This document shows, piece after piece, positions 6,141 through 55,357 of a stretch of 64,000 bases of DNA. Source of the DNA: a virus. Lineage: Duplodnaviria; Heunggongvirae; Uroviricota; Caudoviricetes. The notes under the pieces were generated by a model. The model was not told where the DNA came from, searched no databases, and worked only from the letters and a program-made list of their open reading frames with translations. Within the stretch, counting starts at the first letter, position 1. Every line of letters starts with the position of its first letter. The DNA is taken from IMG/VR virus record IMGVR_UViG_3300021467_000082; one strand, given 5' to 3'. The position numbers were made by a program, and so were the translations under genes.

Positions 6141-7511
6141 TTATTTTAGCACATTAGATAAATAATTTTTAGCTTCATCCAGTAATTTATTCTTTCTGTT
6201 TAAATTCTGATCTTCTATTACCAATCCCAAAAGATAATTCAACACGTGTCCAACAGTTGGACCAGGCTTTAAATTAAAATATTCAATTAAATCATCTCCG
6301 CTAATATCTAAGTCCTTAACACTTAGGGCCTTAGATTTCTCATAAACTTCTATAATATGCTCTTCAAACAGTTCCTGTCTATGCGATACTTCACTTAAAT
6401 TTCCACCATTTGCTAATCTATCAGCTCGACGCACTAGAAACAGTGGAAAATTTTCTAGATCTTTCAAATCTTTTTCTTTAATACCTACTTTTTTAATAAA
6501 GCGCCTTATCGCAGAATCTTTCCATTTCTTTGGATCATAATTATACATATGATTATAAACTAAATCACCAACTTCCTTAACCAATTTTGGTTCATATTTA
6601 AGTTTCCTTAAGAACCTTTTAACTATAGTTTTACCCTTAACTTCGTGATTGTAGAAAGTAATTCTACGTTCACCATTTTTCACTATCTCGGCTTGTGTGT
6701 AAGCTTTGCCGATATCATGAAATAAGGCAGCTAATTTTACTTTCAAATCAGGTACGGCATATTCACATGCTAAAACGCAATGCGTAAATACATCATACTT
6801 ATGATATTTCGGATTCTGTTTAACTCCTCTGCACATAGCCAATTCTGGCAATATAGTATATATTAATCCAGAATTCAACAATAATGTGAAATACTTGGAG
6901 GATTTCTTACTCATAACTATTTTATTAAATGCTTCCCTTATTCTATTAACAGTAGTATTATTAATATCCAAATTTTTTGAATTTGCAATTATAGCATGTA
7001 ATAATCTATTATTTAAATCATAACTTAATTCAGCGGCTAGTCCTACCGCTTCAATCATTACTACAGGATCTTTAACTATTACGTAGACAGGGTCATTAAT
7101 AATATCAATAACTTTATTTTTGATTGCTTCAGCCGCACCTGTCAAATCAATAATATTATGATTAGTTACTAATGGAATATACAATCCATGTATGGTGTAA
7201 ATTCTAGTTTGTGCATCCTCTTGCAAACTTATATAAGGATTAATATTACCGTTTAAATCCCTTGGTAATTCAAAAATTGCAATTGTATCTTCGTCTACGA
7301 CTTCTACTATACCTTGTTTCTTCCTAGATGTGACATTATTAAAATGCCTATTTAAATATTTACTAATAGACATCAAAGACAAATTTCTAACTAGGAATCT
7401 ATATTCCGTAGGCCGCTTTCGTCTAACTATATCTCTAGCACAACTACCAGAATAATAGACTTCAGCCTTAGTATCACGTATTAGTTTTCTTGCTATTTGT
7501 TTTATCTTCAT
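6141..7511 (-). CDS. HD-domain protein related to CCA-adding/poly(A) polymerase family enzymes, with a degenerate head motif (SGSCARD, no DxD)
   Basis: N-terminal YYSGSCARDIV resembles the GGxVRD head motif but lacks the catalytic DxD; central HD motif FTHC...LFHDIGKAYTQ. Confidence 0.6.
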   Translation of the reverse strand: MKIKQIARKLIRDTKAEVYYSGSCARDIVRRKRPTEYRFLVRNLSLMSISKYLNRHFNNVTSRKKQGIVEVVDEDTIAIFELPRDLNGNINPYISLQEDAQTRIYTIHGLYIPLVTNHNIIDLTGAAEAIKNKVIDIINDPVYVIVKDPVVMIEAVGLAAELSYDLNNRLLHAIIANSKNLDINNTTVNRIREAFNKIVMSKKSSKYFTLLLNSGLIYTILPELAMCRGVKQNPKYHKYDVFTHCVLACEYAVPDLKVKLAALFHDIGKAYTQAEIVKNGERRITFYNHEVKGKTIVKRFLRKLKYEPKLVKEVGDLVYNHMYNYDPKKWKDSAIRRFIKKVGIKEKDLKDLENFPLFLVRRADRLANGGNLSEVSHRQELFEEHIIEVYEKSKALSVKDLDISGDDLIEYFNLKPGPTVGHVLNYLLGLVIEDQNLNRKNKLLDEAKNYLSNVLK

Positions 7512-8334
7512 AGATTCTACGCCTCATTGCTTTATTTAATCTCTTCTTAAGTTTTCTAACTTTATTACCGACACTAACAGCAGATACACCCATCTCTTTA
7601 GATAATTCTCTTAATGAGGTCTGGTTAACGTAATATTGCCATAATAATTCAAATTCTTCGTCTGTTAATAGATCCATTAACCATTCAATATTCTTACTGG
7701 TATCTAATGAATTGACGACATAATCTTCATAGTCCTCAAATTCAATTAGATTAGCGTTTACATCTGACAATTGTAATGGTAATGGTTCAATCCGCTTTAA
7801 TAAATTATACACAGATACAGATGATCTATTAGCCAACGCCGAGAACTTCTTTGTTGTTTCTTTGATTTTCTTATCTAGTTCAGTACGAACTGTGCGTTTC
7901 TCAGCCAATTCCCATATATCGAAAATATTCAATAGATCAAGCTGTTCCCCAGCTTGACCCAGTAACTCTCTTAACATTATCAGTAATCTAATACCATCCC
8001 TAAGATATTGCGGAATTTTAAGAGAAACTTCTTGCTTAGTTAAAAATTCCCTCATAGCATTCTTTATGTAATAAATAGCAAAGATCTTAAATGATTTATC
8101 TCCAGAACTCCTAGTTTTGTCAAAAGCTCTAACCGCTCTGGCTAAACCTATTAAACCTTCTTGAAATAAATCATCTGGATCTGCACCAAATACAGTATAA
8201 TTCCGAGCTAAAAGGCTTATAATCTGACTAAATTTGTTGTAATTCTCTAAGGCTTCTTCTTCTGTATCACCTAAAAAGAACGGACAAAAATCTTCATCTT
8301 GGCGTATTGGCATCGGTAAACCTCTATACATCAA
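7474..8334 (-). CDS. sigma-70 family RNA polymerase sigma factor
   Basis: Region 2 DDLFQEGLIGLARAVRAFD...YYIKNAMREF; C-terminal region 4 HTH TSLRELSKEMGVSAVSVGNKVRKLKKRL. Confidence 0.8.
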   Translation of the reverse strand: MMYRGLPMPIRQDEDFCPFFLGDTEEEALENYNKFSQIISLLARNYTVFGADPDDLFQEGLIGLARAVRAFDKTRSSGDKSFKIFAIYYIKNAMREFLTKQEVSLKIPQYLRDGIRLLIMLRELLGQAGEQLDLLNIFDIWELAEKRTVRTELDKKIKETTKKFSALANRSSVSVYNLLKRIEPLPLQLSDVNANLIEFEDYEDYVVNSLDTSKNIEWLMDLLTDEEFELLWQYYVNQTSLRELSKEMGVSAVSVGNKVRKLKKRLNKAMRRRIYEDKTNSKKTNT

Positions 8335-15846: not shown

Positions 15847-15854
15847 AGTCTACC

Positions 15855-16628: not shown

Positions 16629-16639
16629 ACTTTGCCTCC

Positions 16640-19435: not shown

Positions 19436-21238
19436 TTACGCCTCCTCTATCATTGCTCCCATTTTATTATAAACTTCAACTCTATGCCAAAACTGAGCTC
19501 TCAAAATACCTATGTTCTCATCTACATAATCATATAGGATGGCTTCATCCTTACCCTCAGCCTTTCTTTGTATACGACCAAGAGCTTGTTCTGTAAATGT
19601 CTTATTTTTAAATGGCAACACCAAAAAGCCTCGGTTTAGCTTTGGGACATCAAAACCTTCGCCCAACAAATGAAACGTTGTAACTAGTACTGTTATCTCG
19701 TCATTTTCCAATCTAAGTACTTGTTCTTCATTATAGGTTTTAGAATAATCGCCAGTAGCCAATCCAGTTTTTGGCCATTTATCTTTTATTTTTCTATACA
19801 ACTCTTCACAATAATTCTTTCTTACTGATATTACTAGACAATAATTTCCTTTTCTCGCTTCAGCAATAATATCATCTATAATTCGATTGGTCCTTGCTTC
19901 ACTTTCTGTTATTGCTTGTATAGCGCGGCTATAATTATTGCCTATGTATGTTGCGTAATCCAAAGGGACTTTCTTAATGACTGTCTTATCAACAAGATTC
20001 ACGCCTGCCACTTCCCTTGGGATATGCGCAGTAATATCTCCAATAGAAGCATACATTAGATCTTCTAACCCATCTCTTCTATTTGGAGTTGCGGTCAATC
20101 CATATAAATAATAACTTGAAAAATTAGAAATCACCTCCGTAAATGTTTTACTAGGCGTATGATGACAGTTCGAACTTAATATACCATTAGCAATGAATAA
20201 ATGTTCAGTAGTGGTAAAGTCATATACTGTAGTTGGTTTATTATTTACTATTTTTCCTAAAACTGGCATGCATTTGTAATATCTACCATTATAGTTTATA
20301 TCTATACCATCATTAGTAAATTGTACGTCTACTAATAGTAAATCTCCCTCCTTTATATTACTCATAGTTCCAAATGTAACCGTTTTTATATTGATGTTTT
20401 CCATTGGAACATATGGCAATTTATGAGTTGGAGTGCCCTCTAATATACCAAAGCCACCTTGTAAAATAACCGTTTTATCTGTTTTTCTAGCAAACTTGTT
20501 TGTTACTCGACCGAATGGTGTTATATCACCGTCTTTTATATCTTCTATATTTTTTACTGAACCATCAAGCATCAAAATCTTAGTTCCAGCAACTAAACAT
20601 TCATCAACTATCACTAACCCAAATTTACGGCCTAATTCGGGTAGATATTCTCTGCGCCTAATCAGAGTTTGAACTAACGCAATCGTTATCTTGTCGCCCA
20701 GTTCAACCTCTCCACCGCCAATAAAACCTATCTTGCCGATATTTTCTAAGAACATGTTGATACGATCCATAACCTGATTAGCAAGCCTGTTGGTATGAGT
20801 TATCCACAGCATGGGCTGGAATAAAGAAGCAAATAGGTAAAGAGCCATTACTGTCTTGCCACTTCCTGGCGGCGCTAACAGTATACCATTAGGATGTTTC
20901 AATAAATTCCTTTTTGCTGCCTTTTGGTACAGAAACGGTTTAATTTTACTTTCTACTGTTATCGGCGGTAATAATATTCTGTTGTCTATTATTTCTAAAG
21001 GCACTTGTTTATATATAAGACCCTTTTCGATGACCTGTAAATACCCTCTTGGAATAATTATGCCCCCTGGCGTAGTTTGAGCCATGTAAATAAATTCGGG
21101 TATGTTGCCAACATATCGTCCATATTTAATGGCTTCATCAAATACTGGATTCCTAAATGTTAAAGCAGTAAGAAGCCAGTCTCTGAGCTCTTTGGGAACA
21201 TCTAATAATGTAATATGGTGATCAATTATTAATTTCAT
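19436..21238 (-). CDS. SF2 DNA/RNA helicase (motif I APPGSGKT, II DE-CHH, III GLTATPNRRDG) carrying a mini-intein in motif II
   Basis: Helicase motifs present; VIVDE|C...SSN|CHHTP architecture. Confidence 0.85.
   Translation of the reverse strand: MKLIIDHHITLLDVPKELRDWLLTALTFRNPVFDEAIKYGRYVGNIPEFIYMAQTTPGGIIIPRGYLQVIEKGLIYKQVPLEIIDNRILLPPITVESKIKPFLYQKAAKRNLLKHPNGILLAPPGSGKTVMALYLFASLFQPMLWITHTNRLANQVMDRINMFLENIGKIGFIGGGEVELGDKITIALVQTLIRRREYLPELGRKFGLVIVDECLVAGTKILMLDGSVKNIEDIKDGDITPFGRVTNKFARKTDKTVILQGGFGILEGTPTHKLPYVPMENINIKTVTFGTMSNIKEGDLLLVDVQFTNDGIDINYNGRYYKCMPVLGKIVNNKPTTVYDFTTTEHLFIANGILSSNCHHTPSKTFTEVISNFSSYYLYGLTATPNRRDGLEDLMYASIGDITAHIPREVAGVNLVDKTVIKKVPLDYATYIGNNYSRAIQAITESEARTNRIIDDIIAEARKGNYCLVISVRKNYCEELYRKIKDKWPKTGLATGDYSKTYNEEQVLRLENDEITVLVTTFHLLGEGFDVPKLNRGFLVLPFKNKTFTEQALGRIQRKAEGKDEAILYDYVDENIGILRAQFWHRVEVYNKMGAMIEEA
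20168..20599 (-). mobile_element. mini-intein (144 aa, residues C214-N357) inserted in helicase motif II DECHH; no homing-endonuclease domain seen
   Basis: N-terminal CLVAGTKILMLDG (Cys1 block A), C-terminal FIANGILSSN followed by the +1 Cys; the host motif reconstitutes as VIVDECHH. Confidence 0.8.
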
Positions 21239-21253: not shown

Positions 21254-21946
21254 TCACAGGTCTAAAATCATTTCTAACTCTTTCTTCCACTCCTCATTAT
21301 CGTTGAAGAAACATGTAGTCGTAATTTTTTTATCTTTTTCATCTACTTTCTTACTTGAACTATATACAATGATTTCTCTTTTCACAGCCGTATCCGTAGC
21401 TTTTTCTTCATCCTTGCTGAACGGCATGCCTTTTTTAACTTTCTTAATTGCGCTCTTTATTCTTCTCCTAATACTTTTACGATCTTTTGGTCTTAATCTT
21501 CGTTGTAATTCTGGTAAATCAGATAAATCATAATCTATACCAATTAATCCAGGATTAATTCCAGAGTATGTTTCATAAATATGAGCTCTCGATTCTGCAT
21601 CAAGCTTTTCATTATTTTGGTTAAGAAAAGCCTCATAGCACACTATTTGATTCTTAGTAGGCAAACAGGATTCAGTGCGATGTTTACATATATCTCGACA
21701 TACAATAGCAGAAAAAGCTGAAAATGACCTCAACATAAATAACCTGTCATCAGCCAATTTCTCTAACACTAATATATAAAATAAAAACTCAGTAAATTTT
21801 TTCTCGTTACTCGTAAATAATAACCTACAGAATTCATTCTGAACCACAGTATTACATAATTTACATACATTGCGGCATATATGCTCTTTGAATAATTTTG
21901 ATTGCCCGCTTTCACTCATTTTTATTTCTTGCTGTTGTGATTGCAT
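21254..21946 (-). CDS. hypothetical protein
   Basis: ORF track, 230 aa. Confidence 0.5.
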   Translation of the reverse strand: MQSQQQEIKMSESGQSKLFKEHICRNVCKLCNTVVQNEFCRLLFTSNEKKFTEFLFYILVLEKLADDRLFMLRSFSAFSAIVCRDICKHRTESCLPTKNQIVCYEAFLNQNNEKLDAESRAHIYETYSGINPGLIGIDYDLSDLPELQRRLRPKDRKSIRRRIKSAIKKVKKGMPFSKDEEKATDTAVKREIIVYSSSKKVDEKDKKITTTCFFNDNEEWKKELEMILDL

Positions 21947-22400
21947 CTTTAAAAACCTCTTTCACAGTTTTGCCATCAGGCAATTTCCAAAAAGTCCACC
22001 CGCTTCTACGAACACCACTTACAGCTTCAGCGGCAGCAGATAGACTCTCATATCTTTTGTCTCCTATCCAGAATGCTCCATCTTTAACTTGGAGAAAATA
22101 ATTCAATCCCTTGGTAGTTCCATACAAAACTGTGCCTTCAGGAATTTCGGCCTTTCTTTCATTCTTTTTCTGCTCTATCAATTCTGCGATAATCCTATCA
22201 TGTTCTTTGTTCAAATCATCTCTCAATTCTTTTACCATTCTGAATAAATTATCCAAACCACTAGTCAAATGAAATATTCTTTGTTCAAGCTCCGATATTT
22301 TATCAGCTTTAGGCTCCTCTTCCACCTCAACTATTTCTTCTGGCTCAGCATCTAAAGCCACACATTTCAACTTATCTAATTTCATTTCTGGCATGTTCAA
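21912..22400 (-). CDS. hypothetical coiled-coil protein
   Basis: ORF track, 162 aa. Confidence 0.4.
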   Translation of the reverse strand: MNMPEMKLDKLKCVALDAEPEEIVEVEEEPKADKISELEQRIFHLTSGLDNLFRMVKELRDDLNKEHDRIIAELIEQKKNERKAEIPEGTVLYGTTKGLNYFLQVKDGAFWIGDKRYESLSAAAEAVSGVRRSGWTFWKLPDGKTVKEVFKDAITTARNKNE

Positions 22401-23368: not shown

Positions 23369-24871
23369 TTAGATTTCTTCACCAGTTCTTGGATCTATAA
23401 TTATATATTTCTCCAATGTCCTATCCATCACCGCAATAGGAGATAAATCCTCTCCGGAGAAAATACTTGCTAGAATTGATGGGCTAAACCCAGACACCAA
23501 AGCTGTTTTCGTCTTATAAGCTAATGCTGGTGAACCAGCATAACCAGCTGTATTCCAATAGACTATCTTTGGAGGAATATAGCCAGCTTCTTCAAATTTC
23601 GCTAAACACCTCTCGACCGGTGTACGCCCTTTTTCAATTCTAACAGGGACGTATGCAGCAGCCGTGAATTGCATATCAGATATTATTAATAGTGTAGTAG
23701 GCATTTGTTCTTGTTTCAAATTGAAAAATTTGGCGACTTTCAATATGGACATTAATGCTTTATCAATTCTAGTAGCTCCAACCGCGCCATCAAAAATCGC
23801 TTCATTTCTCACCGCTTGTGCGAATGTCATGCCTGACCAATCTTTAAACTCACTTTCACTACAGAAAGCTATGAATTTTCTATAAAATGGATTATCTTTG
23901 CCGATTTTATCTGAACAATATAGTGCCATGCCAATGGAAACATGTACCGCTTCTACAGACCCACCAATTATAGATCCCATTGATGCCGACGTATCTGCTA
24001 TGACAATTATCTTTTCATTGGTGCCCTCTAAAAAATTTGGTAACGCTTCAAATTGGGCATTAGCTATTTCATCATCACCGTGCATAACAGTCCTTACACA
24101 ATCATGCGGAAATAGCGCATCAGAATGTACTTTTGCCTCACCCTTTACAAGCGCTTCTTTGTATTTCTCAAATCTTTCAGCATCATGTCTATTAAAAGCG
24201 TTGGTATAACGTGCCATTGCTACAGAAGGCACGGTTTCATAATTTATTTCTTTCCACATGTTATGGCACATTTTGTGCTCAACTATATGGTCCTTTCTTA
24301 TATCGGCCAAGAACCGTCTAAAATTCGCTATTGTCATTCCCAAGGCCTTTCTAAGTGGAGCATACTCTCGTTTTGCCCATTTCGCAGCTAATACCGTTTT
24401 AGATTTCAAAGCGTTGGCCCATAATTCTACCGCAGCCCTTTCTGCTTTTGTATTAAATAATGCTTTAAGATCGTCCCATCTACCAACAACAGGCAACCAT
24501 CCGATATTCGCAGTAATCCATTCTGGTGCATTATCTCCTAACCAGTTATAAATGGACCTGGCTCCGCTGCGATTGCCAGCCCCTCCTCTACAATCGCGTA
24601 GCCACAACAATAGTTTCATTGATGTCACAGGATCTACTACCCATACTTTTTGGAATAATCCCAAAGCAGATTCTTCTTGGCCATAAAAACTTCGTCTGTT
24701 TTCGAATAAAGACCCAGCTTTACTGAAAAATTCTATTGCGTGATCCATACTAAATTCATACTGCAAAGCACCTTCGTTTGTCCTTTTCATATTAAATCCT
24801 CCTTTCAGGCTGATATTTTGGAGGCCAGCTGTTGGTTTGCTGTAATCAGCCTTTCCATAATTATAGCACAA
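23369..24871 (-). CDS. vWA-domain protein with a long N-terminal helical domain; possibly TROVE/Ro60-like
   Basis: C-terminal MIDAS IIVIADTSASMGS with a classic vWA fold; size and architecture (about 300-aa N-domain plus vWA) fit Ro60/Rsr; RNA-repair genes nearby. Confidence 0.55.
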   Translation of the reverse strand: MCYNYGKADYSKPTAGLQNISLKGGFNMKRTNEGALQYEFSMDHAIEFFSKAGSLFENRRSFYGQEESALGLFQKVWVVDPVTSMKLLLWLRDCRGGAGNRSGARSIYNWLGDNAPEWITANIGWLPVVGRWDDLKALFNTKAERAAVELWANALKSKTVLAAKWAKREYAPLRKALGMTIANFRRFLADIRKDHIVEHKMCHNMWKEINYETVPSVAMARYTNAFNRHDAERFEKYKEALVKGEAKVHSDALFPHDCVRTVMHGDDEIANAQFEALPNFLEGTNEKIIVIADTSASMGSIIGGSVEAVHVSIGMALYCSDKIGKDNPFYRKFIAFCSESEFKDWSGMTFAQAVRNEAIFDGAVGATRIDKALMSILKVAKFFNLKQEQMPTTLLIISDMQFTAAAYVPVRIEKGRTPVERCLAKFEEAGYIPPKIVYWNTAGYAGSPALAYKTKTALVSGFSPSILASIFSGEDLSPIAVMDRTLEKYIIIDPRTGEEI

Positions 24872-24895: not shown

Positions 24896-27800
24896 TTAAC
24901 ATCCTATTGCATTTTGTTGATTTGGAACAACCAGTTTATCAATATAATCGGATAACAATCTATACACATCTCTCATTTTCGTCGTTGTTAGAATATCCTT
25001 AACCTTCATCTTCTCGGCTTTGAGCCGCTCTAGCTTGTCTTCTATACTCTCAGTTTGTGTTTGCAGCAATCTTTTCAACATAAAGCTTGGCAGATCAGCT
25101 GCGCTGTCTTGCAGATGATCCAACAATCCAAATGGGCCAAGGCTAGCTCTAGTTGCAAAATAAATTCTATTTCTTTTTCTCACTATGAAGTTAATTATTT
25201 TACTTCCTCCTCTGGCCTTTGCTCTAGCATGAAATTCTTTTAGATTCTGTATACCCAGCTTTGCCGCTTCAGATTTAATCAAATTACACAACAACTCGCT
25301 AGGACGCCTGTCAAATCCCAGACTGACCATGGCATCTACGTCAGCTACACATATTGCATCAGTAGCTTCTTCTTGCAGAGATTTGATTCCATGCTTCTGC
25401 TTAAAAACAGTATTGCCAAGAAAATCCAGCAACAGCTCTAGATGAGCATGTTCTTCAGTTTCAGAATATGGTACATTTCTTTCTACTATTCTCATTAGAT
25501 TATATGCCAACGCAATTACTGGTCCAGTATGACTTTTAACACCAGTTGCTTTTCGTACCAACTCTGCATGTTCTTCATTAGTCGGTTTTGGAAAATAGCA
25601 TATATTGAAATCATCAAACGTCATTTCCTGTATCCTTGGAACTTTCTTACTATTCATTTTATTTATAGCATCAATACATACTTTATTTGGATTATGAAAC
25701 TCCTTTCTCAAAGCTTCTCTTGCCTCTGCAGTATGAAACGATGCCAAGAACAAAGTATCTCCATCAAAATCTAAACTTAAACTTACCAGACTATTTCCAC
25801 TTACTCGAATAACATATCTACACAGTGGATCATCGGTTATTTGCACTTTCTGGGGCCTAATAGACATAAATCCCAAGCAGGGAAATCTTTCTACCAATAC
25901 AATATCCCCAGTCTTCACGTTCAATTGCTGCGCCATATCTCTATGAATCTCAATCGTATTTGGCGGTAGATTATCAGCCAGCGCAGCTACTCCATGCGCA
26001 GAATAAGGATACCTTATAGCCATTCCATATGTGCTCAATTCTCCTCTCTTTGTTCCCATGCTCCTGGCAACTACCCTAAAATACTGCGAAACAGCCCTCA
26101 TAAGTTCATTTTGATTGATTATACTTTTGTCCTCTACAAATTCATGGGTTAGTTGAACAATCCTATTTACCAAAATTCCTACTTGGCTTAGTCCCCACTT
26201 TCCAGATGGATGCCGCCAGCATCTGCGCAGTAGAGCATTTGGAATAAATATTTGATTATATCGATAGACATCATATGTATTTGTATCAACATCATCATCT
26301 GGCAATCCCATAGAAAAATCTTCTTTATCCTGTTTATTAACAACAGCTTGAAAATAACAAGGCAGCCGCATTATAAACCCATCAGCAAAAAATTCTTCAT
26401 CTACAATTGTTCCTTTTATTTCATCAATTGTATGAAGAAAACCTCGGCGCAAATCAACGAATCTAATATCTTCAGCATCAATAATTGGATAGTTAGTGTC
26501 TACTTCTCCTTTAGCAGAATGTAGAATCCTAATTTCGTCTTTAATAATTTCTACTCCTTGTGCATGAGACATTACTTCTTTTATTATAGGGTTGCCAGGA
26601 CCGAACCTAGTTACTAGCGCTTTAATTTCAACATGACTAAATTTCAACCCAGAAGTTCGCAGCTCTCTATTATTCGTAATCCATGCCTTCTTATCGTCCC
26701 ATATTTGATCTTCTGGATCTTTGGTTACGCCCCAAAACATCTTACCTACAACTGCCTGGAATTCTCCACAATATGTTCTAATCATCCAAGAACCATCTTC
26801 TGGAAATCCCTTGGCTTTTAACGCAGCCTTAATTTTACCTTTAGTAACTATATATTCATCGTCTATAACTATTGGATCATCGCCTTCATTCAGATTATTA
26901 GCGAGCATTTCCAATAGTTGGCCAAAATTCTTTCTTTTATTAATAGACGTTCCAGATATGATAACATCGATAGGCACTTCCTCACCGGTTTTTGGATTAA
27001 TGGCTACACCAAGATCCATAAACTTAACAATGCCTTTATTTGCGTGCAGATTGGAAAATTTACTACCGTCTTTCAAAAACCTCTTTCCTTCAACAGTGAT
27101 AATCGTTGCTTTAATTGGCATATTATCCAATTCAACCACAACTCCATTAATGGTCAAGATTTTACCCTCATCACAGCGAAGATCCATTATAACTGGCTTG
27201 CCATCCGGAGAGAAACCTAACTTATCTCCGAATCTTATATTGTCGCCTTCCTCAACTAGGATCTTATCGCCATATATTGTAAACTTCTTATTTACTGTAT
27301 GCGATAGACTCAATAGTCGTTTATCAACCAAAATCTGATCTTCAAAAGTCAAAGGCGTATCCAAAATTGCAGTCGTAAGATTCCAACCCCTTCTTTCAAA
27401 CCCCTTGTCTATAAGTTTCTGCATACTCTTGGTTCTTATCCTAGGCAGCTCATCGCCTTGCATACACAGAGTGGAATATAGATTTCTTTGTGGATTGTGG
27501 AACATTCCAAATGGGGTTATCCTCCGCATATCTAGATCCAGCAGATAATTCTTATCAGCTAATACACCGTCGCTTAAGCCTATTGCAGTCCAGCCAAACT
27601 TTTGATAATATTTTCTATTTTTTTCTACTTGATACTCCAGCCTTTTATTTGGATCTTGAAGTCTATTAAATTCAGGATCTATTATGATGATCCTATGATT
27701 CATGGCCCATGTATTCATGTCAGTTTCATGAATTGGCATTGTATTTACTATTTCATCTATCAATCTCTGAGTACTCATTACCATATAACTGACTTGATTA

Positions 27801-28174
27801 TTCTTGAAGGACCTTGCAATTTTCGCTACCATTGGGGTTCCACTTTCAATATGTGGAAAGATTACATTTACATCGTCCAATAGTAGTTTTTCAATAACTT
27901 GCAAATAAGACAATTCTTCTTGCTTCTCTTCTAGCCAATACCTAGATACTGCTCTCTTAATCCCATTTCTAATTATGAATACCAGGCCATTTTCTATTAC
28001 AGGGAGTGGTATTTCCAAAGCTTTGCTTATTTCTGCATTTTCAAATATAAACCATAAACTATGCTCTACAATTTTAGTTTTTATGTTAGCCGTTACTTTT
28101 GCAAAAGTTTTGTTTCTGTTAAACTCATTCTTCACCCTTTCGGCCAAGATTATGGCCTCATCCATCGGCTCCAT
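24896..28174 (-). CDS. multisubunit RNA polymerase subunit: beta C-terminal half fused to beta-prime N-terminal half
   Basis: Beta motifs SKFSNLHANKGIV (GNKGV), SINKRKNFGQLLE (PSRMNxGQ-like), HVEIKALVTRFG (GEMEVWAL-like), followed by the beta-prime catalytic SLDFDGDTLF (NADFDGD). Confidence 0.8.
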   Translation of the reverse strand: MEPMDEAIILAERVKNEFNRNKTFAKVTANIKTKIVEHSLWFIFENAEISKALEIPLPVIENGLVFIIRNGIKRAVSRYWLEEKQEELSYLQVIEKLLLDDVNVIFPHIESGTPMVAKIARSFKNNQVSYMVMSTQRLIDEIVNTMPIHETDMNTWAMNHRIIIIDPEFNRLQDPNKRLEYQVEKNRKYYQKFGWTAIGLSDGVLADKNYLLDLDMRRITPFGMFHNPQRNLYSTLCMQGDELPRIRTKSMQKLIDKGFERRGWNLTTAILDTPLTFEDQILVDKRLLSLSHTVNKKFTIYGDKILVEEGDNIRFGDKLGFSPDGKPVIMDLRCDEGKILTINGVVVELDNMPIKATIITVEGKRFLKDGSKFSNLHANKGIVKFMDLGVAINPKTGEEVPIDVIISGTSINKRKNFGQLLEMLANNLNEGDDPIVIDDEYIVTKGKIKAALKAKGFPEDGSWMIRTYCGEFQAVVGKMFWGVTKDPEDQIWDDKKAWITNNRELRTSGLKFSHVEIKALVTRFGPGNPIIKEVMSHAQGVEIIKDEIRILHSAKGEVDTNYPIIDAEDIRFVDLRRGFLHTIDEIKGTIVDEEFFADGFIMRLPCYFQAVVNKQDKEDFSMGLPDDDVDTNTYDVYRYNQIFIPNALLRRCWRHPSGKWGLSQVGILVNRIVQLTHEFVEDKSIINQNELMRAVSQYFRVVARSMGTKRGELSTYGMAIRYPYSAHGVAALADNLPPNTIEIHRDMAQQLNVKTGDIVLVERFPCLGFMSIRPQKVQITDDPLCRYVIRVSGNSLVSLSLDFDGDTLFLASFHTAEAREALRKEFHNPNKVCIDAINKMNSKKVPRIQEMTFDDFNICYFPKPTNEEHAELVRKATGVKSHTGPVIALAYNLMRIVERNVPYSETEEHAHLELLLDFLGNTVFKQKHGIKSLQEEATDAICVADVDAMVSLGFDRRPSELLCNLIKSEAAKLGIQNLKEFHARAKARGGSKIINFIVRKRNRIYFATRASLGPFGLLDHLQDSAADLPSFMLKRLLQTQTESIEDKLERLKAEKMKVKDILTTTKMRDVYRLLSDYIDKLVVPNQQNAIGC

Positions 28175-28217
28175 ACCTCCTCCTTTTATGAGTTATGAGT
28201 TACAAGATCAGTATTGT

Positions 28218-29417
28218 CTATATAACCTCATACAAACGGGAAAGAGCCGCTTTATCAAATTTTCTCATTGTCCTAAATTCCTCCATAAACTTCTTTAGTT
28301 CACTGTCATTTAAACTATTTTTGTACCCTAATGTACGCAATAACATTTTGCTCACCTCTATGGGTATAAGATTGCTACATACAGCGGCACTGATTACTGT
28401 AAACACTGAATAGGCTTGGTGGTAATATTTCTCGAATAATTGAATATTATTGTTATGTTCTGATAATGGCACACGACGTAAATGTTTTACATCATCTATT
28501 ATATTTTCTACATTGGAATTATTTATGCACCTTACTATATAAATATGTTCAATAAGCCTATCAATCATAATTTTGCTAAGCGTAGTGTAGAATTTTGCTT
28601 TAAATGTTTGTATATTTTCACATATCCTTAACCTATCTACTCTAGAGAAATTGTAAGCGTCTGCAACTAGTAATCTGGGAGATCGTAAACGTTGCATAAA
28701 GACATTTACATCATTTGCATCGTTATCAGCATCAACAACTGGTACAAAATCAGCATCAACAACTGGTACAAAGCCATCACAAAGCTGAATACCTGGATGA
28801 ATAAGATATGTCGTTAATAACGACGCAATAAAAGCGTTATACTGTGCTTTTGTTATCATTGCATAATAGCGCCCGTACGGATAGTTAAGATTGTCATCAG
28901 CAAATTGTCTAACATTCCCATCAGAAATTAGAGATAGATAAGCAAAGTTCTTAAACGTATTGTTTAAACCATAGATCATTGCTACAAGCCATGCTAAAAA
29001 TTCATCGCGGCTTTTCAGTACATTGCTAGGCTCTTTTCTAATGAATACAATTGGTAAAACATATTTCTCCCTCTTTAGTAATATGTCTAATTCATGGCCA
29101 CATAATACACACGGTGCAGATAAATTGATTAAAAGTGCATCAAGTGATTGTAAACCATGTCTGCTACCGTTAAAAACATTCACGCCACTTAGTATAGCAT
29201 GCTTAACATTTCGTGCTAAATTAATATTTAACAACATGAATTTACGTTCCGGCTTCGGAGCCACCATTATAACGTCTAATAATATACATTGCATAGTAGG
29301 TTGTAAGAAAGCACTTATCACATAACCTGCTCTACCAGCTACAACTGAGCCTCGCTTTCTAGAACTTTTGGTTATATATATTCTATCCCCTAAATTAAGC
29401 ATATTGCACCTCACCAA
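28218..29417 (-). CDS. hypothetical protein containing an in-frame duplicated octapeptide (DFVPVVDA x2)
   Basis: ORF track, 399 aa; 24-bp tandem duplication at 28725-28772. Confidence 0.5.
   Translation of the reverse strand: MVRCNMLNLGDRIYITKSSRKRGSVVAGRAGYVISAFLQPTMQCILLDVIMVAPKPERKFMLLNINLARNVKHAILSGVNVFNGSRHGLQSLDALLINLSAPCVLCGHELDILLKREKYVLPIVFIRKEPSNVLKSRDEFLAWLVAMIYGLNNTFKNFAYLSLISDGNVRQFADDNLNYPYGRYYAMITKAQYNAFIASLLTTYLIHPGIQLCDGFVPVVDADFVPVVDADNDANDVNVFMQRLRSPRLLVADAYNFSRVDRLRICENIQTFKAKFYTTLSKIMIDRLIEHIYIVRCINNSNVENIIDDVKHLRRVPLSEHNNNIQLFEKYYHQAYSVFTVISAAVCSNLIPIEVSKMLLRTLGYKNSLNDSELKKFMEEFRTMRKFDKAALSRLYEVI
28725..28772. repeat. 24-bp perfect tandem duplication (ATCAGCATCAACAACTGGTACAAA x2) inside a CDS
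   Basis: Seen directly in sequence. Confidence 0.85.
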
Positions 29418-30183
29418 ATGGAAATCTCTCGCCTATAACTTCGTCAAGAACCGAAAGTACAGATACAAAAAACTCATTGTTGCCAGAGTTTAGCCCGCCG
29501 CGTCCGAATTCATTGATAACCTCTCGTATATTTCTACGAACCATTTGTATATAGCTGCGTATAATATTCGCCTTCTCTGCAAACGCATAGTGTAACTCAA
29601 ACAATTCATTAGCTCTATATGCTTCATGGTCGGGGCCTTCGTAATGGGATCTGAGTAGTTCCCTTATATCTTTATCTGTCTCGCCAAAATTTATAAGTCT
29701 AACTATATTATCTAAATAAGCACTTACATGTATTTCGCCACGCAAATGGCGAGTTAACGGTCGTCCTTCTTTAACATCTTGTATGAGACGATCCAATCTA
29801 GCAGGCCTATGGCCATAATTATTGCCCGCCACTCGATAGGCATTAACCATAGCTACCAAATACGCCATGAACACTATATAATCGCATTCTAGCAAATTTG
29901 TTTTTGGCAGCTTTGTTACGGTATGAGAATGAGTTAAGAAGTCATTCTTTATACCTTCCGCTAAAGCTGTTTCTGGATCTATAATCGGAAGTCTTAATTT
30001 AGCACCCATTATCCTTGGTTTGCCAGTCTTACCGACTCTGTAAAAAATACAGTCATATAACCATCCGATACTTTGAGTAACGGAAGGGAAATATGCTATA
30101 AAACCAAGCGATCCTGGCAAAATTTTTGATCTTGTAAGTTTGTCTTCTACTTTAATAGCTTCGCCACAAAGATAAAAATGCAT
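29395..30183 (-). CDS. hypothetical protein
   Basis: ORF track, 262 aa. Confidence 0.5.
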   Translation of the reverse strand: MHFYLCGEAIKVEDKLTRSKILPGSLGFIAYFPSVTQSIGWLYDCIFYRVGKTGKPRIMGAKLRLPIIDPETALAEGIKNDFLTHSHTVTKLPKTNLLECDYIVFMAYLVAMVNAYRVAGNNYGHRPARLDRLIQDVKEGRPLTRHLRGEIHVSAYLDNIVRLINFGETDKDIRELLRSHYEGPDHEAYRANELFELHYAFAEKANIIRSYIQMVRRNIREVINEFGRGGLNSGNNEFFVSVLSVLDEVIGERFPFGEVQYA

Positions 30184-30199
30184 TGTATGTCTCCTCCAC

Positions 30200-30553
30200 T
30201 TATGTTACTATATGATATTCGTCACCACACACAGTTTTATAACAAAATACTGTCTCCTTTGCTTTATAATGAATGGTAGTAAATAATATCTCAGGAGTAA
30301 TAATTATTACTCGTTTGTTCTTCTTTAATTGAGTAGAAGCAAATATCAACCTTGTATTATTACACTGTACAGATACAGGTTCTATGCTAGCAGAAGTAAA
30401 CACTGCTTTAGCTGCACCTTTAGTATTCAAAACGGCCTCTGCTTCTCTGCGGGTTACCATTCCTACCAGTCTACCCTTAAACGAAATCTCCTCTTTCTTC
30501 TTGCGATTTATATATCTTATCTCCTTAATATCAGCCATCTTCCTCTTCCCCAT
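30200..30553 (-). CDS. hypothetical protein
   Basis: ORF track, 117 aa. Confidence 0.4.
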   Translation of the reverse strand: MGKRKMADIKEIRYINRKKKEEISFKGRLVGMVTRREAEAVLNTKGAAKAVFTSASIEPVSVQCNNTRLIFASTQLKKNKRVIIITPEILFTTIHYKAKETVFCYKTVCGDEYHIVT

Positions 30554-31019
30554 ACACCTTTTTGCAATCTATAGGAATTGTGGTAGCAGTAATTTGAATG
30601 CTAGGAGTTAGCGGCGCTCCTAATATAATCGCAAAATCATCTATCGCAAAATCGTCTCCAATCATATTTTCTATTTCCTCTGTTAACTCTTCTACAGTGT
30701 CATACGGTGTGCAATCTACCGTGTTTCCGAACCCTTCACTAAGTAAATATAGGCCCATTTTGCTGAACTTAAACGGTATCTCATATGGTAATTCCTTAGG
30801 ATCTAAAACTAGGCCATAAAAAATAGATGTTGGATCATCTAAAGAGAAAATAAGATTATCAAATTCACTTTGAGGCATTTTCCTAAGTTCGCCATTAATT
30901 TCCGCTTTTGTAGTGGATGCTATAAATAAGCCTGGCGTGCTAACTACATAGACATTAGTTCCAATATAATCTTTGAATTGACTTATAGATCTAATAAGAG
31001 CCATAACTCGCCTCCACAA
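30531..31019 (-). CDS. hypothetical protein
   Basis: ORF track, 162 aa. Confidence 0.45.
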   Translation of the reverse strand: MWRRVMALIRSISQFKDYIGTNVYVVSTPGLFIASTTKAEINGELRKMPQSEFDNLIFSLDDPTSIFYGLVLDPKELPYEIPFKFSKMGLYLLSEGFGNTVDCTPYDTVEELTEEIENMIGDDFAIDDFAIILGAPLTPSIQITATTIPIDCKKVYGEEEDG

Positions 31020-31990: not shown

Positions 31991-32747
31991 CGTTTCCCCC
32001 TACTAATTCTACATCTTCAGCATAATCTACTCTTTCATGGTAATTACTAGCAACATCTGCTATAATTGCTTCTTGAATAGATTTTAAGTTACCCAATACC
32101 ACAGTTACATTGTCAAATTGACCATCTAAATGCAGTTTATTATAAATATTAGACACTATGGCTCGTGGATCATGCTTTGCTTTGGAATCTCTATATATAG
32201 CTCTAGAAGCAGCTTCTACTTGATCACAAAACATTAGAATTAAAGATTCCAAAGTATTCGGACGTTGAGTCTTATATCTAAACTCATCTATTCGATCAAT
32301 CTCCACTTTTTCAGCTATTGACTTCAACACACATGTACCATGATGCTGGCTGGCTATTTTAATTACCTCCATAGGAAAATCGTTTGCTACCAAAATTGCT
32401 ACCGTATCAGATACATGTCTTGTTATTAATTGGTAGCTAATTTCCGGTGTTAACTCATCATGTATGTTTTTGCCTTCTCTTTGATTTTCAGTAAATATTT
32501 CCGGGTTCCACATTTTACCTATGTCATGATACATCGCCGCTATCTTTAATGTCTCCGATTCCATTCCAACACTAGCACAAACATTCTCTATCATTCCTAC
32601 TAATGATTGTGCATGCTTATAGCTGCCTGGCGCTTTCTCTCTGAATTCTTTTAGCAGCGGAAAGTTAGAATCCAAATAACCTAATTCTTTTTCTTCTTTC
32701 TTCACTGCTTCTTTGGTTTCCTCAATCAACTCGACATTCTCCGACAT
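31980..32747 (-). CDS. HD/HDIG-domain phosphohydrolase
   Basis: H...AAMYHDIGK...D motif arrangement. Confidence 0.7.
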   Translation of the reverse strand: MSENVELIEETKEAVKKEEKELGYLDSNFPLLKEFREKAPGSYKHAQSLVGMIENVCASVGMESETLKIAAMYHDIGKMWNPEIFTENQREGKNIHDELTPEISYQLITRHVSDTVAILVANDFPMEVIKIASQHHGTCVLKSIAEKVEIDRIDEFRYKTQRPNTLESLILMFCDQVEAASRAIYRDSKAKHDPRAIVSNIYNKLHLDGQFDNVTVVLGNLKSIQEAIIADVASNYHERVDYAEDVELVGGNDER

Positions 32748-33457
32748 TTGCTGCCTCCAATTTTATCCTTATATAAGGTAACGAATTTTTCAAAATCATA
32801 TTTCAGAAAATCTCTCATTATGCATTGATAAGCAACTACACCAGGATCTGTTATTCTCATTATTTCGGGATGAAATTGTACGCCAAAACCATTAATATTG
32901 GTAAAGATAGCGCCTTCAACTTCTTGCACATCATCATCTACCTGTCTACAGTTCTCATCGAAATAAAGCCGGGCAATGCTTGGCTCAGTCCAAATTAATG
33001 GTATTGCTTTATTATTTACCTTTACCAACTGATGGTGTGTGCTAGATACCAAGTATTGACTCTTAAACGGTGCAAAGTACGCATTGTGATATGGAGGATG
33101 CCTCGCTATATGTTGATACATCTTACCACCAGCCATCACATTGATAAATTGGAATCCTCGGCAAATGCCACTTACTTTAACACTATGTTTTAGACATACA
33201 TCGAAGATTTCTTGTTCAAGGCGGTCTCGTTTATGGTTAACATAACTCATACCGTCAATCTTCCCGCCATAGAATCCTGGAGATACATCTTCTCCACCAG
33301 TAAACAATACCATATCTATATCTGTATAGTGCATTTCGATAATATCTGTTATCCGTTTAGCGTCATGTATGATATCCTCAGTAGAGTACAATATTCTAAC
33401 AAAACCTTGAATTGGAAATGAATAGACTGAAGGCCCTACCACTACGATGTTATGCAT
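32726..33457 (-). CDS. class-I glutamine amidotransferase-like protein (peptidase C26/gamma-glutamyl hydrolase-like)
   Basis: Nucleophile elbow GICRGFQ and VQFHPE (His-Glu of the triad). Confidence 0.7.
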   Translation of the reverse strand: MHNIVVVGPSVYSFPIQGFVRILYSTEDIIHDAKRITDIIEMHYTDIDMVLFTGGEDVSPGFYGGKIDGMSYVNHKRDRLEQEIFDVCLKHSVKVSGICRGFQFINVMAGGKMYQHIARHPPYHNAYFAPFKSQYLVSSTHHQLVKVNNKAIPLIWTEPSIARLYFDENCRQVDDDVQEVEGAIFTNINGFGVQFHPEIMRITDPGVVAYQCIMRDFLKYDFEKFVTLYKDKIGGSKCRRMSS

Positions 33458-34382: not shown

Positions 34383-34396
34383 TGTTCCCTCCTCAA

Positions 34397-37205: not shown

Positions 37206-37451
37206 TTATGGATCTACTCTCTCCACTACCTTATCTATGAAATTTTGTAATGCTCGTGTAGCGTGAATAGAATCCACTACTATATTCTTTTTAGTGGAAA
37301 ATAGAGGTACTTTCGTTTTCTTGTTATATTTTACTGCAACCACTTTGTTTTCATCAGAGTCATGTTTAAATACTGCAACGATATCATTGTCAGATATTGA
37401 AAGAGCCTCAAAATCAAAACGTGATAGATCAACAGTGTTAATGGTTTCCAT
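37206..37451 (-). CDS. hypothetical small protein
   Basis: ORF track, 81 aa. Confidence 0.4.
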   Translation of the reverse strand: METINTVDLSRFDFEALSISDNDIVAVFKHDSDENKVVAVKYNKKTKVPLFSTKKNIVVDSIHATRALQNFIDKVVERVDP

Positions 37452-55093: not shown

Positions 55094-55117
55094 ATTGGTA
55101 TTTTATTGGTATTTACG
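55094..55117. repeat. 11-bp tandem repeat (ATTTTATTGGT x2)
   Basis: Seen in sequence. Confidence 0.6.
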
Positions 55118-55208
55118 TTATTATATTATGTTATGCTTAATTATATCATACTAACTGGTCATTGTTCAATAATTCATAATATTTTCAATAGTTTATTGCA
55201 TCAATCGT

Positions 55209-55357
55209 CGATGAATTGTCATTGATTATTAAGATGCATAGTTGATATAGTTATATATATTTGATGAATTGTACAATATTTCTATTAATTTTAATATGTT
55301 ATGGCACTATGACTCAACTAATTTCAATATATTATAGCATTATATCTTGATGAATTG
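55209..55357. repeat. three dispersed ~19-bp direct repeats (TGATGAATTGTnnnnnATT) at about 55209, 55262 and 55339
   Basis: Seen in sequence. Confidence 0.6.

What the first reader, a model, noticed from the sequence alone, without database searches (positions are those of the whole stretch)
24896..28174. RNA polymerase subunit that fuses the beta C-terminal half to the beta-prime N-terminal half, alongside a phage sigma-70 family factor
The 1092-aa ORF contains beta-subunit hallmarks in its first ~500 residues (GNKGV-like HANKGIV, PSRMNxGQ-like SINKRKNFGQLLE, GEMEVWAL-like HVEIKALVTRFG). The universally conserved beta-prime Mg-binding motif DFDGD (SLDFDGDTLF) lies at about residue 820. Multisubunit RNAPs of jumbo phages are usually split into separate beta and beta-prime fragments, so a natural betaC-beta-prime-N fusion polypeptide is notable. 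The remaining halves must be encoded outside this window. The same window also encodes a sigma-70 family protein (7474-8334, regions 2 and 4 recognisable). That raises the question of whether this phage RNAP is sigma-dependent, unlike known phiKZ-type enzymes, or whether the sigma redirects the host RNAP.
Basis: partly seen in the sequence, partly recalled or inferred. Interest (0 to 1): 0.65.

Follow-up and report, generated by a model that had tools for sequence, protein, structure and literature searches.

The report
Compact one-chain phage RNA polymerase
An uncultured large phage encodes a 1092-residue protein that packs the catalytic parts of both big subunits of cellular RNA polymerase into one chain; it belongs to a widespread, apparently undescribed phage family that usually also carries its own sigma factor.

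Summary
Window 24896-28174 (-) is an intact 1092-aa ORF with a beta-type catalytic barrel (aa ~263-485) followed by a beta-prime-type barrel (aa ~717-811, DFDGD at 802-806). All eight residues reported invariant in two-barrel RNA polymerases are conserved in 147/147 full-length relatives.

Family length is constant, and a rare two-gene form sums to the same size. An invariant helix sits where the bridge helix is expected.

I read it as a self-contained minimal DNA-dependent RNA polymerase. A sigma-70-family gene (7474-8334) keeps the same syntenic position in 10 of 12 distant relatives. It most likely redirects host polymerase, but use by the phage enzyme is not excluded. This is a new variant of a known kind.

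The parts
24896..28174 (-). Gene for the 1092-aa single-chain two-barrel RNA polymerase
28175..28190 (-). Ribosome-binding site (AAAGGAGGAGGT) directly upstream of the ATG
   Evidence: Sequence read.
27305..27388 (-). First half of the beta-type barrel with the FED motif (aa 263-290; E278, D279)
   Evidence: Aligns to E. coli beta 797-823; 0 of 300 shuffles reach the score. D279 is conserved in 147/147. Translation checked.
27077..27304 (-). Small all-beta insert inside the beta-type barrel (aa 291-366), at the position of the flap/wall (SBHM) insert of cellular beta. This is an inference.
26720..27076 (-). Second half of the beta-type barrel (aa 367-485) with GSKFSNLHANKGIV and SINKRKNFGQLLE; the catalytic lysines are K372 and K380
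   Evidence: HMMER alignments to bacterial beta. Pfam Rpb2_6 covers 332-463. K372 and K380 are conserved in 147/147. Translation checked.
26645..26719 (-). Flexible linker (aa ~486-510); this is where the two-gene relatives are split
   Evidence: The pLDDT 10-residue blocks for 491-510 drop to 63-65. P0216 ends and P0184 begins here.
25742..26026 (-). Beta-prime-type barrel (aa 717-811) with ERFPCLG (R763, P765) and DFDGD (D802, D804, D806)
   Evidence: Pfam Rpb1_2 covers 748-820 and is found in 43/43 members. All five residues are conserved in 147/147. The best local alignment of 759-808 falls on E. coli beta-prime 421-466. Translation checked.
25475..25579 (-). Candidate bridge helix (aa 866-900, ...KATGVKSHTGPVIALAYNLMRIVE...)
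   Evidence: Single 35-residue helix in the model. It holds the densest run of invariant residues in the family, 876-898. G884, Y891 and R895 are conserved in 147/147. The assignment is an inference from position; pairwise alignment to E. coli beta-prime was not significant.
25376..25459 (-). Candidate trigger-loop base (aa 906-933, ...LLDFLGNTVFKQKHGIKSL...)
   Evidence: Helix 906-928 followed by a loop. Invariant residues are G920, N921, F924, Q926, K927, H928 and G929. H928 is conserved in 147/147. The assignment is an inference only.
7474..8334 (-). Sigma-70 family factor (regions 2 and 4), syntenic with the polymerase across the phage family
   Evidence: TIGR02937 71.5 bits against a cut-off of 42.9. 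Pfam Sigma70_r2. A homologue lies directly after RuvB in 10 of 12 RNAP-bearing IMG/VR contigs.
19436..21238 (-). SF2 (ResIII/DExH) helicase with weak matches to RadD- and XPB-type models, conserved 3-4 genes downstream of the polymerase in 19 of 20 related loci
   Evidence: Pfam ResIII E 1e-19. NCBIfam RadD and XPB models give weak, far sub-threshold matches. Synteny.
21912..22400 (-). DUF2924-like small protein, conserved next to the polymerase in 19 of 20 loci
28218..30183 (-). Two fast-evolving ORFs (399 and 262 aa) directly upstream of the polymerase; a related pair occupies the same position in a 45%-identical relative
   Evidence: No family or PDB match. The 262-aa ORF shows weak similarity to L004:7788-8723, E 2e-4. 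The gene order matches in L004.

Best explanation
The ORF encodes a self-contained, single-chain DNA-dependent RNA polymerase of the two-barrel (beta/beta-prime) superfamily. It is a drastically reduced beta::beta-prime fusion.

Proposed mechanism. The N-terminal module (aa ~1-485) supplies the beta-type double-psi barrel, with E278/D279 and lysines K372/K380 to hold the incoming NTP and the second metal. The C-terminal module (aa ~510-1092) supplies the beta-prime-type barrel, with R763/P765 and the Mg-binding triad D802/D804/D806. It also supplies a clamp-like connector, a bridge helix (aa ~866-900) and a trigger-loop-like element with invariant H928. The two barrels face each other to form one active site, as in cellular RNAP.

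Proposed role. The enzyme is made after infection, because its gene sits among replication and RNA-repair genes in a long co-directional array. It then transcribes one temporal class of phage genes. The phage sigma-70-family factor, encoded 17 kb downstream in the same conserved block, redirects the host RNAP to another class.

What is shown: the fold, the catalytic residues, family-wide conservation, the fused and split forms, and the synteny.

For: All eight residues listed as invariant in two-barrel polymerases by Ruprich-Robert and Thuriaux (PMC2919709) are present and conserved in 147/147 full-length relatives. The 8-residue K-to-K spacing is the same as in Rpb2.

Size is constant across more than 325 clusters. 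Independent two-gene variants have their own Shine-Dalgarno sequences and start codons and add up to the same length.

No other Pfam RNAP domain was found in the window's ORFs of 150 aa or more, and PHROGs gave none for the unknown ORFs it was run on.

There is precedent: the ~100 kDa single chain YonO is a processive DNA-dependent RNAP that transcribes SPbeta late genes (PMC5467207), and P23-45 gp64 is active alone.

Sigma region 2.2, DLFQEGLIGLARA, is invariant across the eight sigma relatives aligned. From my own knowledge of sigma-70 region 2.2 it is close to the bacterial consensus. That fits binding to an ordinary bacterial beta-prime clamp helix.

The best sigma-70-type promoter matches cluster in an AT-rich, gene-poor stretch at 55-56.6 kb, which suggests that host RNAP starts the programme.
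Against: No biochemical data exist for any member.

Additional small or very divergent subunits cannot be excluded. The yeast-plasmid Orf6 enzyme is thought, from my own knowledge, to need a small Orf7 subunit. AR9 and phiKZ nvRNAPs need a fifth promoter-specificity subunit. Two unknown ORFs sit just upstream of the gene, and an equally conserved 539-aa unknown lies in the block.

Only 64 kb of the genome was readable here, while related viral contigs reach 228-298 kb.

The tight co-inheritance of the sigma gene is equally compatible with sigma serving the phage enzyme.
Confidence: 0.55

Rival explanations
1. It is the catalytic core of a multi-subunit phage polymerase. Further phage proteins would be required for activity or for promoter-specific initiation. 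These could be divergent beta-N-like or beta-prime-C-like pieces, an Orf7-like small subunit, or a gp226/gp68-like specificity factor.
Against: Family size is constant, and the split form adds no extra sequence. About 900 of 1092 residues are already accounted for by superposition on beta plus beta-prime. No RNAP-like hit was found in any other ORF scanned. The upstream ORFs evolve too fast for obligate core subunits. The 539-aa protein sits inside an amidoligase/amidotransferase cluster, not next to the polymerase.
Confidence: 0.25
2. The phage sigma-70-family protein is the initiation factor of this mini-polymerase. That would make it a sigma-dependent non-cellular RNAP.
For: The sigma gene is retained at the same position of the same ~20-kb block in 10 of 12 relatives whose polymerases are only 38-45% identical. 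It is also found in the closest relatives. Published surveys describe phage-encoded two-barrel RNAPs and sigma factors as belonging to different jumbo-phage groups (PMC7598289; PMC7824862), so this pairing is unusual. The model has a helical hairpin (aa 664-706) just before the beta-prime barrel, where the sigma-binding clamp helices lie in beta-prime (the positional reading is an inference), and a flap-like insert.
Against: Sigma region 2.2 stays close to the bacterial consensus, while the polymerase has lost all sequence similarity outside the barrels. Two of 12 relatives lack sigma at that position. Many phages encode sigma factors purely to redirect host core. Synteny within a conserved core block is not specific evidence of physical interaction. 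No interaction test was possible with these tools.
Confidence: 0.12
3. It is not a transcriptase. It would be a two-barrel enzyme with another role, such as RNA-dependent RNA synthesis like QDE-1, or priming or DNA synthesis like archaeal PolD.
Confidence: 0.05

Closest known systems
Yeast linear-plasmid (pGKL2) Orf6-type Rpb2::Rpb1 fusion polymerase (982 aa) and its relatives in giant eukaryotic viruses
   Same: One chain of about 1000 aa in beta-then-beta-prime order. About half of each parent subunit is deleted and the two barrels are retained (PMC2919709). In the published scheme, 'derivatives with fused DPBB domains' fall in the cellular-type clade (PMC10770324).
   Different: Those are eukaryotic cytoplasmic plasmids and viruses; this is a bacterial or archaeal virus. 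No sequence was available here for a direct comparison, so relatedness is untested. An independent reduction is as likely as shared ancestry.
Split multisubunit non-virion RNAPs of jumbo phages (phiKZ, AR9)
   Different: [quoted passage not shown] Their phages encode no sigma factor. This protein is one chain of 1092 aa in a sigma-encoding phage.
YonO of Bacillus prophage SPbeta
   Same: A single-chain (~100 kDa) two-barrel enzyme with the same barrel order. It is proven to be a processive DNA-dependent RNAP for late phage genes (PMC5467207). It is the best functional analogy.
   Different: No detectable sequence relationship: hhalign probability 0.1%, BLASTP E 0.12. The YonO/RdRP clade lacks the insert in the beta barrel. 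This protein matches cellular beta directly by phmmer.
P23-45 gp64 / P74-26 gp62 non-virion RNAP, P23-45 gp96 tape-measure-fused RNAP, crAss-like phi14:2 gp66, and Neurospora QDE-1
   Different: Their structural scores are clearly lower than those of the multisubunit enzymes. Sequence similarity is at most marginal: gp96 gives E 0.07 over the DFDGD region.
mReC phages with deep-branching beta and beta-prime (Weinheimer and Aylward 2020)
   Same: Uncultured tailed phages, some over 200 kb, that encode cellular-type RNAP subunits.
   Different: mReC enzymes are two separate proteins of at least 800 aa each, with COG0085/COG0086 scores of at least 80 and an NADxDGD motif. This protein scores 21-36 bits on the Pfam domains and has LDFDGD. 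On those grounds I would not expect that screen to have captured it; it was not scored against the COG models themselves.

Membership tests
Two-barrel (double-psi beta-barrel) RNA polymerase superfamily | The eight invariant active-site residues: three Asp of DxDxD, R and P of RxP (beta-prime/Rpb1 side), one Asp and two Lys (beta/Rpb2 side) (PMC2919709) | tested here: met
   D802, D804, D806, R763, P765, D279, K372 and K380 are each conserved in 147/147 full-length relatives. The K-to-K spacing is 8, as in Rpb2 K979/K987.
Two-barrel (double-psi beta-barrel) RNA polymerase superfamily | Two DPBB folds facing each other, with the beta-type barrel N-terminal to the beta-prime-type barrel when fused | tested here: met
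Cellular-type (multisubunit-derived) clade, as opposed to the YonO/RdRP/crAss clade | SBHM (flap/wall) insert within the beta barrel, which Iyer et al. 2021 report as absent from RdRPs and YonO | tested here: inconclusive
Cellular-type (multisubunit-derived) clade, as opposed to the YonO/RdRP/crAss clade | Greater similarity to beta/beta-prime than to single-chain QDE-1-like enzymes | tested here: met
DNA-dependent two-barrel RNAPs | Switch 2 and funnel elements, which Ruprich-Robert and Thuriaux report as shared by DNA-dependent enzymes and absent from RdRPs | tested here: inconclusive
   MGTKRGELSTYGMAIRYPYSAHG (aa 706-728; invariant K709, G711, M718, R721, P723) resembles GRFRQNLLGKRVDYSGRSV by eye only. 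The local alignment to E. coli beta-prime did not pick this region. About 400-417 residues superpose on Rpb1-type subunits.
YonO-like family | Detectable sequence homology to YonO | tested here: not met
Split multisubunit jumbo-phage RNAP (phiKZ type) | [quoted passage not shown] | tested here: not met
   One 1092-aa chain, or two genes of 506 and 537 aa in a subclade. No further RNAP-like ORF was found in 64 kb. The rest of the genome was not available.
Active RNA polymerase | Template-dependent RNA synthesis that is abolished by mutating the Asp triad | not testable with these tools
   This requires biochemistry.
Sigma-70 family (ORF 7474-8334) | Regions 2 and 4 score above the curated family cut-off | tested here: met
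   TIGR02937 71.5 bits against a cut-off of 42.9. Sigma70_r2 35.1 bits against 24. Region 4 is below its cut-off, 20.6 against 25.7.

The most novel reading that the evidence does not exclude
The conserved phage sigma-70-family protein is the dedicated initiation factor of this 1092-aa single-chain polymerase. That would give a two-protein, sigma-dependent transcription machine: a minimal 'holoenzyme' about a quarter the size of the bacterial one. It might preserve, or have re-invented, the sigma-to-clamp-helix and sigma-to-flap contacts on a stripped-down beta::beta-prime core.
Probability: 0.12. Interest if true: 0.9.

Novelty: new variant of a known kind. Interest (0 to 1): 0.6.

Why it matters
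Single-chain relatives of cellular RNA polymerase are rare, and each has been informative. YonO showed how little of the enzyme is needed for processive transcription. crAss gp66 linked phage enzymes to RNAi polymerases. P23-45 showed a clamp-less form.

This family differs in three ways. It is abundant, with hundreds of clusters and viral contigs up to ~300 kb from many samples. It is structurally nearer to true beta/beta-prime than the others. It also exists in both fused and two-gene forms, so it gives a natural series for asking which parts of beta and beta-prime are dispensable.

It also breaks the reported dichotomy that large phages either bring their own two-barrel polymerase or bring a sigma factor for the host enzyme. 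Here both are co-inherited in one block. That makes the division of labour, or a possible sigma-dependent mini-polymerase, directly testable with two recombinant proteins.

A compact enzyme related to multisubunit RNAPs could also be useful as a tool.

Tried and rejected
1. Cultured relatives. tblastn of the whole protein, megablast of 12 kb, and tblastn of the conserved 539-aa neighbour against 50,697 GenBank phage records found nothing. A relaxed tblastn of aa 329-828 gave only barrel-core hits at E 0.1 or worse, to jumbo-phage subunits and the P23-45 tape measure protein. RuvB hits looked like bacterial fragments.

2. YonO membership was rejected.

3. mReC membership was rejected on the published criteria.

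4. Mapping further beta and beta-prime motifs by pairwise alignment to E. coli RpoB/RpoC. Only the FED segment was significant. The GEMEVWAL-like, bridge-helix and trigger-loop segments were no better than shuffles. hhalign against single E. coli sequences recovered only 70 columns of beta.

5. Host assignment. The six genome-collection hits are MAG bins of six unrelated phyla, including archaea and Patescibacteria. I read these as mis-binned phage contigs, so they give no host.

6. Search for a phage-specific promoter. No long motif recurs in the 39 intergenic gaps. Sigma-70-like sites are not enriched overall.

7. Walking along IMG/VR contigs by exact-match search gave only ~2 kb per scan. 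I replaced it with a search anchored on the downstream amidotransferase.

8. The ~2000-aa proteins that share the beta-prime barrel region are a different kind of element. P0210 lies beside a TraG/VirD4-like coupling protein. They are not a second polymerase of this phage, as far as can be seen.

9. The list of 23 published two-barrel families (PMC10770324) could not be read in enough detail to check whether this family is among them.

10. A sigma-polymerase complex model was not attempted.
Full report
**1. What is there.**

Window 24896-28174 on the minus strand is an uninterrupted ORF of 1092 codons. A strong Shine-Dalgarno sequence (AAAGGAGGAGGT) sits directly before the ATG. All long ORFs around it lie on the same strand, and the region has about 35% G+C.

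Pfam finds RNA_pol_Rpb2_6, the beta-type catalytic domain, at aa 332-463 with E 7e-9, above the gathering score. It also finds RNA_pol_Rpb1_2, the beta-prime-type catalytic domain, at aa 748-820 with E 3e-4, just below the gathering score. Across a 43-member alignment of the family, Rpb1_2 is found in 43/43 members and Rpb2_6 in 42/43. No other RNAP domain appears.

phmmer against PDB sequences aligns aa 359-423 to bacterial beta. In that alignment GSKFSNLHANKGIV pairs with GDKLANRHGNKGVV, and SINKRKNFGQLLE pairs with PSRMNLGQILE. A family profile improves this match to E 2e-7 over aa ~345-486.

FEDQILVD (aa 277-284) aligns to E. coli beta FEDSILVS, and none of 300 shuffles reached that score. 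DFDGD is at aa 802-806, window 25757-25771.

The Mg motif is at 802, not ~820. The proposed GEMEVWAL equivalent (HVEIKALVTRFG) has no statistical support.

**2. It is a family, not a one-off.**

A search of 5.8 billion protein clusters returned more than 325 relatives. Nearly all are 1,090-1,200 aa and align over 94-100% of the query. All come from metagenomes, and none carries a functional name.

An exhaustive HMMER search of 1.84 billion representatives found about 25 full-length clusters at the 50% identity level, plus fragments.

Members occur on 13 IMG/VR viral contigs of 45-298 kb, and on other contigs up to 327 kb. Six members sit in MAG bins assigned to six unrelated phyla, which I read as mis-binned phage DNA.

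No cultured or deposited phage has a detectable homologue.

**3. Active-site test.**

Ruprich-Robert and Thuriaux list eight residues as invariant in all two-barrel polymerases: Rpb1 D481/D483/D485-type triad, Rpb1 R446 and P448, Rpb2 D837, and Rpb2 K979 and K987 (PMC2919709).

The counterparts here are D802/D804/D806, R763, P765, D279, K372 and K380. Each is conserved in 147/147 relatives, and the two lysines keep the 8-residue spacing. This is strong evidence for a functional polymerase active site under selection.

**4. Fold.**

An AlphaFold2 model built on the 43-sequence alignment is confident, with mean pLDDT 87.4 and pTM 0.81.

Roughly 490 + 410 of the 1092 residues therefore have structural counterparts in beta and beta-prime. 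The protein is nearer to multisubunit enzymes than to the YonO/QDE-1/crAss group.

YonO itself shows no sequence similarity. No chain described as YonO appeared in the PDB sequence or fold search lists, so there was no structural comparison with it.

**5. Architecture (partly inferred).**

Reading the model's secondary structure together with the conservation pattern gives this layout:
- aa 1-262: an N-terminal module. It contains HNPQRNLYSTL (aa 226-236), which by my recollection resembles the Rpb2 motif HNQSPRNTYQ. This was not tested.
- aa 263-290: first half of the beta barrel (FED).
- aa 291-366: an all-beta insert at the position of the flap/wall insert of cellular beta.
- aa 367-485: second half of the beta barrel.
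- aa ~486-510: a low-confidence linker.
- aa 510-716: a connector with a helical hairpin at 664-706.
- aa 717-811: the beta-prime barrel.
- aa 866-900: a 35-residue helix that holds the family's densest run of invariant residues (ATGVKSHTGPVIALAYNxMRIxE). I interpret it as the bridge helix.
- aa 906-933: a helix-loop with invariant GN.VF.QKHG, a possible trigger-loop base with H928.
- A helical C-terminal domain follows.

**6. Fused and split forms.**

Two distant relatives are separate proteins. P0216 (506 aa) covers profile positions 138-490, and P0184 (537 aa) covers 519-1055.

On two independent contigs from different samples, the first gene ends and the second begins with a 14-16 nt overlap. 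Each second gene has its own start codon (TTG or GTG), preceded by GAGGAGGA or GGAGGA. The break coincides with the low-pLDDT linker of the fused protein.

The enzyme is therefore built from two modules that can be one chain or two, and the two-gene form adds nothing in length. This supports the 'fusion' idea but undercuts the idea that large pieces are missing.

**7. Are the 'other halves' elsewhere?**

I found no support for this.
- All 53 other ORFs of 150 aa or more in the window were scanned with Pfam (one more, 26721-27338 on the plus strand, lies inside the RNAP gene and was taken as spurious). The unknown ones were also scanned with PHROGs or NCBIfam. None shows an RNAP domain.
- There is precedent: YonO (839 aa) and P23-45 gp64 work alone.

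The point cannot be closed, however. Only 64 kb of the genome was available, while related viral contigs reach 228-298 kb, and divergent subunits of jumbo-phage RNAPs are hard to recognise. Some reduced enzymes also need one extra small or specificity subunit. Examples are AR9 gp226 and, from my own knowledge, Orf7 of the yeast plasmid.

**8. Genomic context.**

In 20 related loci whose polymerases are 38-46% identical, the gene order is conserved. The polymerase is followed in turn by:
- an SSB-like gene, found in 9 loci
- a DUF2924-like gene
- an SF2 ResIII/DExH helicase with weak RadD/XPB-type matches
- a phiEco32-type COOH-NH2 ligase
- a 539-aa unknown
- two class-II amidotransferases

Apart from the SSB-like gene, these neighbours are found in 17-19 of the 20 loci. 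A Peptidase_C26 amidotransferase and another ligase lie upstream. Iyer et al. noted an SF2 helicase linked to RNAP genes in group 1 jumbo phages.

In the window a Ro60/TROVE-like RNA-binding protein lies directly downstream of the polymerase. RtcB, a Thg1-like enzyme, two CCA-adding-type enzymes and three tRNAs are nearby.

This is the neighbourhood of replication and RNA-metabolism genes, not of virion genes. I therefore infer that this is a non-virion enzyme.

**9. The sigma factor.**

ORF 7474-8334 is a genuine sigma-70 family member.

Its word-searchable homologues are few (9 hits) and diverge faster than the polymerase. It shows 59-60% identity where the polymerase is 84% identical, and 43% where the polymerase is 67% identical. 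The hits appear to lie on the same contigs, judging by matching contig lengths.

I re-anchored on the downstream amidotransferase and so extended 12 RNAP-bearing IMG/VR loci. In 10 of them a sigma homologue (hmmsearch E 1e-19 to 6e-51; 23-34% identity) lies directly after RuvB, exactly as in the window. In 2 of them the block diverges after RuvB and no sigma is seen within 5 kb.

Published overviews state that RNAP-encoding jumbo phages lack sigma factors, while jumbo phages without their own RNAP encode them. This lineage has both, which is its most unusual feature.

Which polymerase does the sigma serve? Region 2.2, DLFQEGLIGLARA, is invariant across the eight sigma relatives aligned. From my own knowledge it is close to the bacterial consensus. 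The polymerase, by contrast, has lost all recognisable sequence outside the barrels. I take this as favouring host core RNAP as the partner. This is an inference, and no tool here could test binding.

The best sigma-70-type promoter matches cluster divergently in an AT-rich, gene-poor stretch at 55.1-56.6 kb, although the total count equals the shuffle expectation. No phage-specific long promoter motif recurs in the intergenic gaps.

**10. Comparison with what is known, and novelty.**

[quoted passage not shown] It works most like YonO or P23-45 gp64, as a single-chain phage transcriptase. Its architecture is most like the yeast-plasmid Orf6 Rpb2::Rpb1 fusion of 982 aa. Its fold is nearest to multisubunit enzymes, including the phiKZ and AR9 subunits.

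It is not a YonO homologue. It does not meet the published mReC criteria. It is not a phiKZ-type split enzyme.

I found no paper describing this family in five full-text searches (one further query failed on a term-length error) and in the reviews I read. I could not check the alignments of the 23 catalogued two-barrel families, so prior cataloguing cannot be excluded.

I rate it a new variant of a known kind.

**11. Confidence.**
- It is a real, selected two-barrel polymerase gene: about 0.95.
- It is a catalytically active DNA-dependent RNAP: about 0.8.
- It needs no further core subunit: about 0.6.
- The sigma serves the host enzyme rather than this one: about 0.7-0.8.

The combined best explanation is given 0.55.

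Noticed in passing
window 20168-20599 (-), inside the helicase gene 19436-21238: A 144-aa mini-intein interrupts motif II of the SF2 helicase (VIVDE|CLVAGTKILM...FIANGILSSN|CHHTPS). The L004 homologue has no insert. The L018 and L023 homologues are ~340-360 aa longer, so they may carry larger inserts (position not examined). NCBIfam's intein C-terminal model scores above its cut-off.
   Followed up: yes
window 55100-56600: An AT-rich stretch (GC ~0.30) with few genes holds the best sigma-70-like -35/-10 matches, arranged divergently: minus strand at 55120-55751, plus strand at 56276-56555. The only sizeable plus-strand ORF (56606-57076) lies next to it. It may be an early promoter or control region, but the total site count is not above shuffles.
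   Followed up: partly
window 58000-64000: G+C jumps from 0.30-0.33 to 0.43-0.45 at about 58 kb. The ORFs there are an SSB-like protein (57927-58652), a phosphatase-like protein (60889-61398) and unknowns. The reason for the compositional shift is unexplained.
   Followed up: partly
window 23369-24871, 35649-36395, 38843-40177, 6141-7511, 37438-38829, 306-1364: A dense RNA-repair and tRNA set: a Ro60/TROVE-vWA-like protein (phrog_850, E 2e-92) right after the polymerase, a Thg1-like enzyme, RtcB ligase, two CCA-adding/poly(A)-polymerase-like enzymes with HD domains, and tRNA-Thr, tRNA-Pro and tRNA-Trp. No Y-RNA-like Rfam match was found.
   Followed up: partly
window 10600-19418 and 32726-35677: A large, strongly conserved cluster of phiEco32-type COOH-NH2 ligases (three copies), an ATP-grasp enzyme, three amidotransferases and a 539-aa unknown. 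The unknown is as conserved as the polymerase: present in 19 of 20 loci at 33-46% identity, with no family or PDB match. The cluster's product or target is unknown.
   Followed up: partly
window 28218-31019: Four consecutive unknown ORFs (399, 262, 117 and 162 aa) lie upstream of the polymerase. They evolve fast, and by eye their N-termini look alike, like a small beta-rich domain. A positional counterpart in L004 shows only E 2e-4 similarity.
   Followed up: partly
proteins P0214 (988 aa), P0222 (907 aa), P0209 (1413 aa): Other single-chain beta+beta-prime proteins from high-GC sources carry near-cellular motifs (GDKLSNRHGQKGV, NADFDGDQ). They may be a separate family of compact fused polymerases. 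Their origin and context were not examined.
   Followed up: no
L027 9387-16223 (protein P0210, 2278 aa): A giant protein shares the beta-prime barrel region with the query. It lies next to a TraG/VirD4-like coupling protein and an AAA ATPase, which suggests a two-barrel polymerase on a conjugative-type element.
   Followed up: partly
L004 5662-6726: A TnpB/Cas12f-like gene (OrfB_IS605) is inserted antisense within the otherwise co-directional conserved block of a related phage contig.
   Followed up: no
BFVD entries A0A8S5SD80_1 and A0A172Q0S6: The closest predicted viral structures to the model are two entries. One is a 'minor tail protein' of Siphoviridae sp. ctnpt50 (TM 0.47 over 1262 columns). 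The other is an uncharacterised 798-aa protein of Acinetobacter jumbo phage vB_AbaM_ME3 (TM 0.49). They may be further unrecognised single-chain two-barrel polymerases, one of them in a cultured phage.
   Followed up: no
window 40197-40919 and 50951-51670: Two paralogous genes combine a YspA/SLOG-type domain with DUF4326.
   Followed up: no
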